Below, in pieces: positions 1,269 through 18,037 of a stretch of DNA of 64,000 nt (positions are counted from its first letter, which is position 1; each line of letters begins with the position of its first letter). The stretch covers positions 124,001-188,000 of the forward strand of contig CT868059.1 of NCBI GenBank assembly GCA_000165425.1. The letters are read 5' to 3'. The stretch is from Paramecium tetraurelia. Lineage: Eukaryota. Under the pieces are notes generated by a model. The model searched no databases. It saw only the letters and a list, made by a program, of their open reading frames with translations, and was not told the DNA's origin. The position numbers and the translations under genes are program-made.

Positions 1269-4200
1269 TCATTCTACTCTACTTAAGTCAGCCTATGATT
1301 GATGGTCATATCCATATTGATCCACAAATACCTCAGGGTAGATCTTATTGTAGAAACGAGGGACGGACAGAATGGTTGGGTTGATGTCTGGAGATAGTGA
1401 GTCATTTTCGTCCTTTTCTCTAATGAAATATCTCTAAAATATCTTACTTATCACTCAATTCCAAAGGATTCATTTGATACAAATGGTCTCTCTTTCTGTT
1501 CTCGTTTCTTACGATGCCCATCAAATATTCTCTAATCATTCTAAATCTCTTCTTAATTCTAGCACGTTGTTCAGCTCTATTCGTGAATAGTTTCCTTGTC
1601 AACCAATTCTTGTTTGACAAATTTGGGAACTTCACATTAATCTTATTTCTTAGCTTATCCAAGGCTTCTTCTTAGCCATCCAATTAAGCCCACAAAATTT
1701 CCCATAGGATAATCGCAATGAAGACTCCATTGATGATTATCAAAAATATGTAGAAGGGCCAAATGATCTCCTGATTGGAAGTCTAGTTGGCTGAATATAG
1801 AGTCATTCCCAACACAATGGAGGTTCCACAAACTAATGTACTCATATCATCCAAATAATTTAAATAGGGTAACTTAAATGGCTTATATTTCTTAGTGAGC
1901 AGAGAATAAATGAACACAATGATGAAGATCAAGGCAGCCTTGATGATGATTAAATCTTCGTAGAATGTCAAAAACAATATGATGAAACTCTTCTAGAAAA
2001 TCTTCACTATTTCCCAAAAGTAAGCTTTGGGTTGATATTCATTGTATAGATAACCCCACTTCTTTCTATTTTCTCCGTCGTTCAAATCATTTTTAATCTT
2101 GTACATGCTCAGAAACATATAAGTGGGTATGATCAATCCAAGTGTAAATGCAGACGGAAATACAAAAGAAAGAACCCATTTCAAATGCTAGGCAGTATCG
2201 TATCTATAGGCCACATTCCCTTGAACCCAGAAGATATTCGATACTTGTCTGAATGACAGCAACGATACAAAGCCTCCTAGAAGAGTAGGTTGCAAATAAG
2301 TGAACAAGTATATGAAAGTAGTGGTGATGGCACTCTTACTGGCATCTGCTTGACGCAACAGGATAGCAATTCCATACAGAATAAAAAAGGTTAAAATGTA
2401 GATGATTGGCATGATCAAAGCCCATATCATTCTAAAGTACATGACATTGATATCTGAGATCTTGATCAAGAAACAATCCAAGGAGTAACTCATGGACTCT
2501 ACAGGTGATCCGACAGTCTTGAATGCACTTGTGAGAGCACTTGGTAAAGAAAGTTAGAATGTTTATACAGCTCCTATAATTTGGAGATAATTGGTGAGCA
2601 CTTTAATTAAGATACCTCCTTAACCAGCTTTAGTTTATTCAACAAAGTATTTCGAAAACTTATGACTGATGATCATGTTATTCACAGCCTCCATTGTACT
2701 CTTCACTGAAAGCATAATGGAAATCAAGGTCCTAAAATAGATAAGATATTATGTTACCAAGTACTAATAAGAGCCACCTTGATTGAATTGTCTCCCACAT
2801 CATTACAACTACCACATTTATACTATGCACTCACTGACCATTGTCCATTCCCCATAATATTGTAGATATCACATTATTCGCATAATGCCCCAATATGTCC
2901 TGAAAAACAGGAGGAGTCTCCTGGAGTCCAGCCTCCCTCACAATTGATCTGCATATTCAAACAATACTCAATCCTAGTACTATATGAGTACGGTCTCCAA
3001 TATCCAGGTCTGAGTTTGACACTGGCTGAAGTGACTGCCTCTGTTGAGATGGTATCTTTGACTTAGCAAGTCTCTCCTGCAATGACCGAATATTAATCTT
3101 GTTGTGAATCACAGACAAGACAAGTACCATCTTCATCTCTCTTCTGCTCTCCCACTTAGCAGTCGAATGATTGCACATTCACTCTCAATCTGTAATTTTC
3201 GATTTGATATTTCAATAAATATGGAGGTTCTGGATTGAACATGGGTATTCTAATCGAACTACACAAGAACTCAATTTACAACACAGCCTAGGAATTGGAT
3301 TTAGGATCAAAATAAACAATCATTTCATCCAAATTGTAATCTTGAGAGGTGGTGTTGAAGTTGACTTCTTGCATACTGGTGTATGGAGAGGTTTGGTTGC
3401 TGGTGACGTTTTCTATGTTTTGTGGATCTATATCAGTGATGTTTTTGAGGTTTATCTTCCTTGAAAAGATTGTACACTTGCTGCCATCCAGATTCTGTAT
3501 TTTATTGTCTTACTTATTGAGTGCTATGATTCTGAAGGTCAAATTGTACGATAAGTATTGTTGTGTTTCTTCGTCGAAGTATTTATAAGTATTGATGGCT
3601 TGTCCACTGGGAAGAGTGATGTAATCCTTCTATGTGTTGGAAACATTGTAAGGTTGAATGGTTATGACATCGATGATGGTTGTTAGGTTTGCAAAGAGTC
3701 TCTCCTTTTCTAGGTAATCGACTCCGCCATTCAATGACAGAGTCAACTAATTGGGATATTCTGCATAATTTTATCCAAACAACTGGGCTTTATTATTTCT
3801 CAATTACAGATTCAATATGCTTGGTGAATTTAGAGTGTAATTTTATAAAAAGAAGGCTCCTCCGACAGCAGCCTAATTTCCATTGATTTCTGAATCATAG
3901 ATATTCAAAGTGGCTTGTTTGGAAATGAAATAGATGGCTCCTCCTGATTCAGAGGCTATGTTGGATTGGAATTTGCAATCATCGAATAGGATGTTAATGT
4001 CATTGACATGAAAGACTCCTCCGTTGGTACCAAAGTTATTGCTAAAGATGCTTTAACGCACAGTGACAGTATAGATGAGGGAGTTTTTGGCAGAATCATC
4101 AACTAACAATCTCAATCGATTTTGGTTGAATTATTGTTGAAGAACAATACAGCTCAATTGTCCACATTGAGACGATTACAATTGAAATTTCTCAAAGGAG

Positions 4201-14435: not shown

Positions 14436-15689
14436 TCAGAAGAAAGTTTTATTTGATTCATCTTTAGAATTTCTTAATTAAGTTATTGTACTTTCTATAA
14501 TTACTTGATTCTTTTTACAAATTTTTTCTTAATCGTTTGATAGAATCTAAGATTATATTTGATCACTTGCTTTATACAAATTATCAATATTTATTTCCAG
14601 AATTGAATTTAGGGAAGAATCATTTGTCATACTTGCTGAACGAGAGGTTAATTACTTTTTAAAGTTTTTGAAATAATGTTTGGATTCTTTGACTCTTTTA
14701 GTGAGAGGCAATGTTTTTTAATTGATTTCATTAAATTACATTTTTTCTTTTGGTTTAACAAATAAATACGCATAAAGCTTGACATCTTTGTTTAATGGAT
14801 CATTCAAAACATATTTCTCTTGTTCGTATTCTTTGAATTATGTATTTTTCATTAGCATTCTCCTCTTAGCCTTACTCAATAGCTTTTATTCCTATTATTC
14901 CCTTTCGTCTATAAATCCCCTTAATTTTTGATCTATTATATCCCTGACTTTTTATTTATTAAAAAAATCTTAATCATTTTTGGATTCTTTATTTTTTTTT
15001 AATTACTCATCATCCCGCTTAACTCTGAGATACCTATGAGTGAAATAATTAACATTTTCGTATTCTCGTTGTCCATCTGTCCTCTCTGTTATCAGATCCT
15101 TTTACTTAAACTTAGATTTATTGTTTTCACTAACCTCATAGAGTTGTCTAAAAAGTTACACATCTTTGAGATTAGTATCTTCAATGAGTTTAGTTTCTTG
15201 ATTTTTTTGAATTAATTTCTTTATTTTTTCGAATCTTTATAAAACTTTGACTTTCTTTTCGATCTCTTAATCAGTCAACCCTTATTGATGTAGAGATCTG
15301 TATTTGTTTGTTACTTGTAATTGATTGGCAAACATGTTAGCTCGTTTTACAAGTTTAAATCTATTTTTGAGTTTGGTTTCCTTCCTGTTCAAATGATTGC
15401 ATTCATTCACTAAATTCAAAGCAGAAAGCTCTCCATTCAAATATTAACGAAACCCTTATCTAAGTTTCTCATTGAATTAAATGGGATTTGGTTAGTTCAA
15501 TGGGGATGAATAGAAGATGGGATCATTCCCATTTTTTTGAGATTTATTTATCTGATTTTTCTATTTTAAGGTGCTTTAGAAATTTCCAAACATTTGATCC
15601 CAGAGCAACACATTTTATCCAGTACCATGTACAATTGATTATCTACTACTGAACAATGTCATGCGTCTTTTTGAGTTCACATTCAGCAT
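14436..15689 (-). CDS. Hypothetical K/Q-rich protein (~417 aa)
   Basis: ATG at 15689 (MLNVNSKRRMTLFSS). Ends ESNKTFF-TGA. Both ends read open in table 6. Confidence 0.7.
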
Positions 15690-15743: not shown

Positions 15744-16634
15744 TCATAATCCTTTAATTTGTTTCAATATCTTCAAAGTGTCCTTTTCAAAAATATTAGC
15801 AGCCGATACACAAACGATCAAATTAGTCAATGAAGTATTGCGAAAAGCATTTTTTAATACCTTTGTAACCAGATGTGTATTGCATAATAGTAATCTCTAA
15901 GCCTCATCATTTGTATTCAAAATACTTTAAATCTAGCCTAATGCTTTATTATTAAAAGTAACTACGATATTGATTCAAATAATACTTTCTTTAATAGCTT
16001 TTGGTGAACAATAAATAGCCTTTTGAGAACCAACTAAATCAACAAATTGAATAGCAAAATTTCCGAAATCCAATTTAACTATCATGGGATATCTTGTAGA
16101 AATGTTATTGAGCATACAATCGCCCTAAGTTCTATTCTTATAACCTGATTTAATAATTTATAAGTATTGATCCATATTCTATATTGGGACTTTTTTTAAA
16201 TTCAAGCAATTAAAACTCTAGTTTGAAGTGATCAATTTCACCTCCTATTAAGTGAATAAATCAATTAACTTAGTTTCTCTTATCTCAATCATACTAAGTG
16301 AAACATCCTATTGTTTTTAGTTGTCTATGTAAATCTACCCGATTTGTTGAATAACTCCATCTTCTCTGAACATTGCAGTTGTCTTCCCAGACTACAATAA
16401 ACAACATAACTATACTGCACATTCCCCATAAGTTATAAACCATTGATCTTATTCTTAAATTTGATTATTAAATTGCAATTGCTAATCTTTGACTACTTAG
16501 CAAAATTTGACATCATAGTTCATTAATTTTATTCGATTTTCATTTATTACAAGAGAGTCAATTGCTCCTGTATATATATCGATTTGTCTTAAACCAATTA
16601 CTCTACAATATACTTTTAAATTATTTTAATTCAT
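15744..16634 (-). CDS. Divergent kinesin motor-domain-only protein (~280 aa)
   Basis: LKVYCRV; P-loop TYGECA|SGKT; VSLSMIEIRETKLIDL; switch I NNISTRYP; switch II FVDLVGSQ; LVTKVLKNAF..TNLIVCVS. 24-nt introns at 16392-16415 and 15962-15985. TGA at 15744-15746. Confidence 0.8.
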
Positions 16635-16753
16635 TAATAAATCATGTCGATAAAATAATTATTTAATTAAGGATTTTTTTTTATTGCAGAATGATCTATA
16701 TTAGAAGAGATATAAATTCGATGATAAAATAAAGTAACACAAAAAGCTTCGAT

Positions 16754-18037
16754 TCAAATTTTGAAAATCTATTTCAATTATTGTTTTGTCTCTTGGGAAC
16801 AATTTAATGATTCTATTTACTCCTTCTGTTCAAGACAATTCATTTTCTGAAAATTTTGATTGTTTTTTGAGAATGTGCTGTGCCTTTTTTGATCTAAGTA
16901 ATTGATAAATTTAATTTAATCTTCAACCATCATTTGATACTCTTTGACCACACTTCTTACGCGTTTGGCTTGACTTCCATTTATAAACACTAAAATTATC
17001 AAATAATTTACTTTACTATTTCTACTATAAATTCTTAATTACAATTTACCCATTAATTTCACCTTTTAATTAGAGAATATAACTTAACCATAAATTTAAA
17101 ATTATTAATATTTATTCAATATCACTCTCTTAATTACTAATCAAGGAATTAAATATTTATAATTAATAGATTTTGTCCTCAAAATATATCCTCATATTGA
17201 ATTCTTCTAAGATTCTGGGAGAATATACTAACATCTCATTATCATTGCTCTACCCAACCAAAGGATGCTGAAATATTTGTACCCAACTTATCCTATCATC
17301 CTCGGAATATCTAAGCATCTATTTTATCAAAGTTACAACAGATGGCATGTCATTTTCAGGAAATGGCACTCTATTGTATTTGATATCCTAGTGGAAACGT
17401 TTTACATCGCTAATTTGGGTATTTGATTGATGTGGTGAGAATCCATACACCATTTTATAGAGGATCAAGCCGAAAGACCATACATCGCATTTGGAAGAGA
17501 AATACGCTTCAAACAGTTAAGGAGAAGCATAAAATGGTGAGCATTTGACTGATAGTTCCCATTTAATCTCAGGATTCGGAACAAATCTTGCAAATCCGAA
17601 ATCAGCGATTTTGGCTTAATTCATTTTAAACACAATATTGTCTGGCTTGATATCTCGGTGAATTATATTGTTTCTATACAACTCCTTGTAGCCATTGCAA
17701 AATTGTTAAATAAATTTTATTATAGAATTTTTGTCGAATTTTTTATTTTTGCATATGCTCTGTCAAATTACCGCCTTCACAATATTCATAAACCTCATAT
17801 GAATTTTCTTAGTGACTAAAAACTTCGATAAATTAAACTAAATTCTCATTCTCCCCTATGTTAGTGTAAACTTCCAAATTCACTTTGAACATTGGTTTTA
17901 TCTATTTCAAAGCAAAAAGTTATTTTTCGCATTCAACCTTATACACCTTTCCTTCACTTCCTTAACCAATTATTTCCAATATCTTGTATTTTCCAATCTT
18001 TTTTTGCTACTTTTTTGAAGCTATATTGAGAATCCAT
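16754..18037 (-). pseudogene. ULK/ATG1-like ciliate Ser/Thr kinase with two +1 frameshifts (pseudogene, sequencing error or recoding)
   Basis: KIGKYKILEIIGQGSEGKVYK, FALK, EYCEGGNL, HRDIKPDN, ADFG, SPFYASPQ, CDVWSFG, RISWVQIFQHPL. Frame breaks in A-runs at about 17998-18016 and 17739-17750. Confidence 0.7.

What the first reader, a model, noticed from the sequence alone, without database searches (positions are those of the whole stretch)
15744..16634. Tail-less kinesin with rewritten switch I/II: candidate non-motile pseudo-kinesin
The gene encodes only a ~280-aa motor fold and stops right after the last helix, with no neck or stalk. The P-loop is retained (GECASGKT), but switch I NxxSSRSH reads NNISTRYP and switch II DLAGSE reads DLVGSQ. 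The switch II Glu pairs with the switch I Arg and is needed for ATP hydrolysis in kinesins, so E->Q predicts an ATP-binding, hydrolysis-dead head. The ORF and both introns are intact, which argues against simple decay. It could be a static microtubule binder or a regulator analogous to Vik1/Smy1/Costal2 (inference).
Basis: partly seen in the sequence, partly recalled or inferred. Interest (0 to 1): 0.72.

Follow-up and report, generated by a model that had tools for sequence, protein, structure and literature searches.

The report
Tail-less pseudo-kinesin of Paramecium
Paramecium keeps and transcribes a gene for a bare kinesin head that has lost the residues needed to burn ATP and has no stalk to walk with, so it is probably not a motor but a static, nucleotide-holding binding protein.

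Summary
Window 15744-16634 (- strand, code 6, two 24-nt introns) encodes a 280-aa kinesin fold with no stalk at either end. It is P. tetraurelia GSPATT00037171001/A0CC70, so far annotated only as a kinesin motor domain. It is transcribed and intron 1 is spliced. No read links it to the downstream ORF, which is a separate gene. Four other P. aurelia species have orthologs ending at the same residue. Identity of 71-89% is far above neutral simulation (18-63%); rough dN/dS is 0.15-0.25. Switch II Glu is Gln in all five, whereas 119 of 120 other kinesin loci I examined in this genome keep Glu. Mg/phosphate ligands are kept, but adenine-pocket and loop-12 microtubule residues are replaced. Non-motor is likely (about 0.85); nucleotide and microtubule binding are inferred, not shown. 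Degenerate kinesins are known (Vik1, KIF26A, TbPH1, KinesinWW); a stand-alone head with an intact P-loop is a new variant, found only in Paramecium among named records.

The parts
16416..16634 (-). exon 1 (Met1 to Ala73): strand beta1 with RVIG in place of RxRP (16604-16593), first half of the P-loop
   Evidence: three orthologs and fragment P0023 start at the same Met; the public P. tetraurelia model lacks the first 37 aa
16392..16415 (-). intron 1, 24 nt, in frame, no stop, splits the P-loop
   Evidence: 4 reads in run X20 join 16391 to exon-1 letters
15986..16391 (-). exon 2: SGKT, central sheet, switch I, switch II, shortened loop 11
   Evidence: RNA depth in three runs
16380..16427 (-). 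P-loop GECASGKT (spans intron 1); Gly, Lys, Thr kept; T87 equivalent is Cys
   Evidence: lies in a near-invariant block of the family
16086..16109 (-). degenerate switch I, NNISTRYP; only Thr172 and Pro175 are invariant in all six sequences, Arg173 is not
16023..16040 (-). switch II DLVGSQ; Asp and Gly kept, catalytic Glu is Gln in all relatives
15962..15985 (-). intron 2, 24 nt, contains an in-frame TGA
   Evidence: depth dip; spliced in five database proteins; no junction read listed
15744..15961 (-). exon 3: helix 4 (Asn213 kept), rewritten loop 12 (15893-15864), basic helix 5 (15863-15837), helix 6, stop TGA
   Evidence: RNA depth falls from about 6 to 0-0.6 below 15756
14436..15689 (-). 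NOT part of the gene: downstream ORF in the same frame, an independent gene
   Evidence: paralogs at G000:C62 and C15 begin at their own Met after a stop with no kinesin upstream; annotated separately in P. octaurelia; zero depth at 15210-15482 in three runs

Best explanation
A functional pseudo-kinesin: a single, stalk-less kinesin head kept by selection in the P. aurelia complex. Shown: fold, expression, constraint, loss of the switch I Arg / switch II Glu pair, no neck or stalk. Inferred from kinesin-1 mechanism: it cannot activate water for ATP hydrolysis and cannot step (about 0.85). Inferred more weakly: it still holds Mg-nucleotide through the kept Lys76, Thr77, Thr172, Asp191 and Gly194, exchanges it freely because the T87-E236 latch is gone, and so sits in the strong-binding shape. 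In that state it decorates or marks a subset of non-ciliary microtubules like a natural rigor head, using helix 4, loop 11 and a basic helix 5 rather than loop 12. The confidence given is for the whole chain including microtubule binding.
For: Fold: Atlas model of ortholog P0008, pTM 0.86, TM 0.89 to kinesin motors over 276-279 of 281 residues; full-length alignment to kinesin-1 chains. Constraint: identity 88.6/78.6/70.7% against neutral means of 62/30/18%, maximum 68/37/25% in 300 runs each; substitutions conservative, 0-2 of 500 neutral runs reach the observed score in each of six settings. Of 58 columns at least 70% conserved in 100 canonical hits, 25 are kept in all five orthologs, 6 in some and 27 in none; 20 of the 27 carry a new invariant residue. 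The R203-E236 bridge is required for hydrolysis and E236-T87 holds ADP; T87A and E236A release ADP about 80 and 40 times faster, and apo-T87A takes the tubulin-bound shape (PMC5307337, passages). The same Glu-to-Gln change in KIF3B gives a microtubule-decorating rigor motor (PMC11043552, passages). K237, E250 and N255 equivalents are invariant, R284 is Lys, helix 5 has charge +3 against a canonical mean of +1.3.
Against: No biochemical or localisation data. Loop 12 has lost the R278 and K281 equivalents and helix 4 carries -2 in 4 of 5 orthologs against a canonical mean of +0.1; the whole helix4-loop12-helix5 charge is +1 to +2 against a mean of +2.8, within the canonical range. Adenine-pocket residues are replaced. 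The KIF3B result is one change in an otherwise normal motor. Not in the ciliary proteome or the reciliation set (PMC7093003 S2 table). Expression is low and the gene evolves faster than its neighbour (88.6% against 97% to P. octaurelia). dN/dS uses genome-wide median dS, not this gene's.
Confidence: 0.45

Rival explanations
1. Pseudo-kinesin that has left the microtubule: the fold is kept as a scaffold or adaptor, a nucleotide is a structural cofactor, and the new invariant surface residues bind another protein, possibly an active kinesin or a kinase.
For: Loop 12 and helix 4 charge altered; 20 canonical positions replaced by new invariant residues; not a ciliary protein in the one table found; KIF26A is a non-motor kinesin acting in signalling (PMC10585591, summary); TbPH1 binds active kinesins (bioRxiv 2021.09.29.462327, passages).
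Against: No partner is known and there is no coiled coil to pair with a motor; several tubulin-facing residues of loop 11, helix 4 and helix 5 are invariant.
Confidence: 0.3
2. A slow or rewired NTP switch, not a dead enzyme: the switch I Thr binds Mg, the invariant Gln helps place the water, and a partner supplies the missing Arg, as a GAP does for a G protein. The changed base pocket may alter nucleotide choice.
For: Lys76, Thr77, Thr172, Asp191, Gly194, Ser195 and Gln196 are invariant wherever covered, including the distant fragment P0021 for 172-196; Gln is fixed rather than drifting; KIF7 shows that a non-motile kinesin can need weak turnover.
Against: The Gln lies two places after the switch II Gly, not one as in Ras (recalled); switch I varies freely (NITTIYP, NLSTTYP, NISTIYP); no activator is known.
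Confidence: 0.15
3. A decaying kinesin copy with no function.
For: Low expression; single copy, its sister lost with both neighbours in the recent duplication; long branch of 1.92; the kinase gene upstream looks frameshifted.
Against: Open frame, length and end point kept in 5 of 5 species over synonymous distances up to 1.0; neutral runs give 18% identity and at most 4% without a stop at that distance; spliced, and its level changes 7-fold on TMEM216 RNAi.
Confidence: 0.04
4. The head of a longer kinesin whose tail comes from the downstream ORF by read-through or splicing, or a fusion with the upstream kinase.
For: The downstream ORF is in frame with exon 3 and starts 54 nt after the stop; a 32-nt GT..AG at 16800-16769 would join the kinase in frame (read by eye).
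Against: No GT lies before the TGA to remove it; depth 0-0.6 across both gaps; the ORF's paralogs stand alone; orthologs end at the same residue; no longer form scored (weak evidence by the tool's own note).
Confidence: 0.04

Closest known systems
Kinesin-1 E236A / T87A and KIF3B E250Q mutants
   Same: Same catalytic Glu and P-loop latch residue changed; these mutants lose hydrolysis or ADP retention and take the strong-binding state (PMC5307337, PMC11043552; passages read).
   Different: They are single changes in intact motors with normal switch I, loop 12 and stalk; here the changes are natural, multiple and fixed.
Yeast Vik1 / Cik1 motor-homology domains
   Same: Non-catalytic kinesin fold kept by selection (PMC4338441, passages read).
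   Different: They pair with Kar3 through a long coiled coil; this protein has none. Vik1 lacks a nucleotide pocket (recalled), whereas the P-loop here is among the best-conserved parts.
Trypanosome TbPH1 and diplonemid KinesinWW
   Same: Lineage-restricted protist proteins with a degenerate kinesin domain, found at microtubule structures (bioRxiv 2021.09.29.462327 and 10.64898/2026.03.30.714256, passages read).
   Different: Both have a broken P-loop and an extra domain (PH, WW); this one keeps GKT and has no second domain.
Costal2 / KIF7 and KIF26A
   Same: Non-motile kinesins used as scaffolds.
   Different: Long multi-domain animal proteins (lengths recalled); KIF7 keeps weak ATPase that it needs.
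Kinesin-13
   Same: Weak hint of origin: two of four structural neighbours are named as kinesin-13 and the tree puts the family next to the KEC clade with support 0.56.
   Different: No KVD or KEC motif; a profile of 36 KEC kinesins scores four orthologs below, and the fifth within, six random non-KEC profiles. Placement unresolved.

Membership tests
Kinesin superfamily (fold) | Pfam PF00225 above the curated cut-off | tested here: met
   5 of 5 orthologs match; P0004 67.8 bits, cut-off 29.3; below the score 100 used to admit sequences to the tree in PMC2867816, an older model
Kinesin superfamily (fold) | Kinesin motor fold over the whole domain | tested here: met
   Atlas model of ortholog P0008, TM 0.89 over 276-279 residues; predicted models on both sides; no model of my own was obtained
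Active kinesin motors | P-loop GxxxxGK[TS] | tested here: met
   GEC[AS]SGKT in 5 of 5, but Cys at the T87 position in 0 of 100 canonical hits
Active kinesin motors | Switch I NxxSSRSH | tested here: not met
   0 of 6 relatives; Arg in 2 of 6, His in 0 of 6
Active kinesin motors | Switch II DLAGSE | tested here: not met
   Gln in 6 of 6 relatives; Glu in 99 of 100 canonical hits and 119 of 120 other loci of this genome
Active kinesin motors | Loop 12 microtubule motif PYRxSKLT | tested here: not met
   LCN[ATG][HN]L[VI][TS] in 5 of 5
Active kinesin motors | Neck or stalk on either side of the motor | tested here: not met
   About 4 residues before strand 1 and 6 after Leu274
Active kinesin motors | Microtubule-stimulated ATPase and motility | not testable with these tools
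   needs purified protein
Kinesin-13 | KVD loop-2 finger and KEC helix-4 motif; clade membership | tested here: not met
   motifs absent (motif names recalled); tree support 0.56 on a long branch, profile score not higher than controls
Vik1/Cik1-type partner subunit | Coiled coil for heterodimer with an active motor | tested here: not met
   no sequence outside the motor fold
Vik1/Cik1-type partner subunit | Nucleotide-independent microtubule binding | not testable with these tools
   needs co-sedimentation
TbPH1 / KinesinWW-type degenerate kinesins | Broken P-loop plus an added interaction domain | tested here: not met
   P-loop intact; Pfam finds no second domain above cut-off; features of those proteins

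The most novel reading that the evidence does not exclude
A kinesin head that has stopped being a motor and become a stand-alone, G-protein-like nucleotide switch: Mg and phosphate ligands fixed, Glu replaced by a fixed Gln, own Arg dispensable because a partner supplies it, base pocket remodelled, stalk discarded.
Probability: 0.08. Interest if true: 0.85.

Novelty: new variant of a known kind. Interest (0 to 1): 0.45.

Why it matters
The non-motor kinesins I could compare carry a stalk or a second domain that explains their job. This one is only the head, so whatever selection keeps must lie in the fold itself. It offers a natural, stable version of the rigor mutations studied in kinesin-1 and KIF3B and a small, single-copy, RNAi-tractable test of what a kinesin head can do without hydrolysis. 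Its reach is limited: it is known from one genus, has no phenotype yet, and ciliates have many odd kinesins.

Tried and rejected
Close paralogs in the own genome: none; the three other matches are canonical kinesins. Sister regions of the genome duplications hold no kinesin remnant, best 5.4 bits. Relatives outside Paramecium: the profile search of 1.84 billion representatives gave the family itself, two short fragments from unnamed sources (P0021, P0023) and then generic kinesins at 70.6 bits or less; 130 of the 147 non-family hits have all three canonical motifs by pattern and one plant protein has DLAGSQ. Longer forms: none scored (weak). Shorter forms: only P0023. Metagenome contigs: nothing in two scans. 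Atlas feature search of unnamed clusters: under 0.9, leads only. Subfamily placement: unresolved. No structure of my own was obtained, so pocket geometry is read from alignments. No complex prediction was sent: a kinesin-tubulin pair would pass or fail uninformatively. No run on record as an RNA holder was listed; raw RNA runs were laid instead. Earlier findings of the scan: none. Papers: gene ids not in any main text (one irrelevant hit); 0 papers with kinesin + Paramecium + motor domain + switch II; listings showed no study of this protein. Supplements of PMC3091696, PMC5485702 and PMC2869310 held no row for it, two files unreadable, so life-cycle expression is unknown to me. Most subscription journals are outside the library.

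Full report
1. What is there. The window reads in the ciliate code. On the - strand an ATG at 16634 opens a frame with two 24-nt GTA..TAG introns (16415-16392, 15985-15962) and ends at TGA 15746-15744. The spliced CDS gives 280 aa; the named record P0005 (P. tetraurelia GSPATT00037171001, A0CC70) is its last 243 residues, so the public model misses strand beta1. Three oligo-dT RNA runs cover the gene on one strand at low depth (bins 0-20). Four reads in X20 show intron 1 spliced. Depth falls from about 6 to 0-0.6 below 15756 and is zero at 15210-15482. Reads were 58 nt and only a third to two fifths of each run was read; intron 2 has no listed junction read.

2. It is tail-less. Orthologs in P. 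octaurelia, primaurelia, sonneborni and pentaurelia end at the same residue. Six residues follow Leu274, against a median of 155 in the 100 of 147 non-family hits that I chose for alignment (shorter proteins with mostly N-terminal motors); 1 of 100 has 15 or fewer. There is no N-terminal stalk either. The downstream ORF is in frame but independent: its paralogs on C62 and C15 start at their own Met after a stop and have no kinesin upstream, and a contig run holds its spliced 3' part without the kinesin gene (X11; RNA is a guess).

3. It is a kinesin fold with the engine rewired. All five orthologs match PF00225, align end to end with kinesin-1 chains, and the Atlas model of P0008 matches kinesin motors at TM 0.89. 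Of 58 columns conserved in at least 70% of the 100 canonical hits, 25 are kept in all five orthologs, 6 in some and 27 in none, and 20 of those 27 have a new invariant residue. In kinesin-1 numbering read: K91, T92, D231, G234, S235, E250 and N255 are kept, S202 becomes an invariant Thr; E236 is Gln in all; R203 is Arg in P. tetraurelia and in the distant fragment P0021 but Ile or Thr in four species; S204-H205 become Tyr/Phe-Pro; T87 is Cys, P17 Gly, H93 Thr; R278 and K281 of loop 12 are Asn and Leu. That T92, S202 and D231 serve Mg and P17/H93 the adenine is established knowledge, partly recalled. In this genome, 119 of 120 other kinesin loci examined keep the switch II Glu, 116 of 120 match switch I, and 107 of 108 P-loops found have Thr at position 87. 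That sample leans canonical: the family search scored 122 of 237 candidates and did not list this gene.

4. It is under selection. Identities to P. tetraurelia are 88.6, 78.6 and 70.7%. At the published median synonymous distances of 0.214, 0.609 and 1.007 (PMC8354472 S6 table) neutral simulation gives 62-63, 30-31 and 18% and never more than 68, 37 and 25% in 300 runs each. The nucleotide change needed for the observed identities is 0.053, 0.105 and about 0.15, a rough dN/dS of 0.25, 0.17 and 0.15; gene-specific dS was not available. Substitutions are conservative (mean BLOSUM +0.56 to +0.62 against -0.4 to -0.5 neutral). Columns conserved in canonical kinesins are more often invariant in the family (45 of 58 against 132 of 222, Fisher p = 0.014). 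Against strong constraint: the neighbouring ORF is 97% identical to its P. octaurelia ortholog. The gene is single-copy; its sister region on C336 lacks it and both neighbours. A published table lists it as 7-fold down on TMEM216 RNAi (fold change 0.146, p = 5e-5; one of 4,295 changed genes), outside the ciliary proteome and reciliation set (PMC7093003).

5. How it most likely works. [quoted passage not shown] Glu-to-Gln at this site makes KIF3B a microtubule-decorating rigor motor (PMC11043552 passages). With both bridge partners usually gone, no neck and no stalk, stepping and normal hydrolysis are very unlikely (about 0.85, inference). The kept Mg/phosphate ligands suggest a nucleotide is still held. 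Microtubule binding is a toss-up: loop 11, helix 4 and helix 5 keep K237, E250, N255 and a Lys for R284, and helix 5 is more basic than usual, but loop 12 is rewritten and helix 4 is acidic in four of five. I put a static microtubule decorator at 0.45, an off-microtubule scaffold at 0.30, a slow or partner-activated switch at 0.15, and decay or a hidden tail at 0.04 each.

6. Comparison with what is known. Non-motor kinesin folds are an established kind: Vik1/Cik1 (PMC4338441, passages), KIF26A (PMC10585591, summary), Cos2 (PMC2867816, passage), KIF7 (bioRxiv 10.64898/2026.02.06.704517, passages), TbPH1 and KinesinWW (bioRxiv passages). This protein works, on my reading, like them but is a member of none: no stalk, no second domain, P-loop intact. 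Its parent subfamily is unresolved; structure neighbours and a weak tree node hint at kinesin-13, motifs and profile scores do not. No named relative was found outside Paramecium; the 62-aa fragment P0021, 50-57% identical, shows the Gln and what looks like the same intron-2 position in a more distant lineage of unknown identity. I found no paper on the protein in ten searches of the library.

7. Verdict. Real, expressed, conserved, and unusual in its own genome; a new variant of a known kind. Interest 0.45: the anatomy is clean and testable, but function is inferred from sequence alone and the range is one genus.

Noticed in passing
window 16754-18037, - strand: The upstream protein-kinase gene shows two apparent frame changes in A-runs (near 18005 and near 17750) with no GT-AG intron to explain them: pseudogene or assembly error. 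Probably GSPATG00037172001, 3-fold down in the same RNAi table (identity inferred from numbering and annotation).
   Followed up: no
L091 (G000:C696:255200-257700): A kinesin with switch I missing and switch II reading DLGWVE, P-loop GASGSGKS, loop 12 normal, and at least 160 open codons after the motor: a second candidate non-motor kinesin, with a tail.
   Followed up: partly
L089 (G000:C28:43600-46100) and L108 (G000:C19:48700-51200): A pair of kinesins whose switch I reads FGQKCH while DLAGSE is kept; L089 has 151 open codons after the motor.
   Followed up: partly
L128 (G000:C11:125400-127900): A very divergent kinesin (longest branch of the tree, 2.27) with switch I VSNKST and altered loop 12, DLAGSE kept, 241 open codons after the motor.
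   Followed up: partly
window 14436-15689, - strand: Uncharacterised 417-aa Lys/Gln-rich ORF without a Pfam match, 97% identical in P. octaurelia, with paralogs on C62 and C15; a contig shows a 23-nt intron at about 14747 that changes its C-terminus from the database model.
   Followed up: partly
G000:C336:385137-385526 (L047 about 3638-4027): The sister region of the last genome duplication has only about 390 bases where the window has 4.3 kb with three genes.
   Followed up: yes
window 16635-16829, - strand: The kinesin frame stays open 65 codons upstream of the ATG without another Met; a 32-nt GT..AG at 16800-16769 would join the kinase to it in frame. No read support; probably chance.
   Followed up: partly
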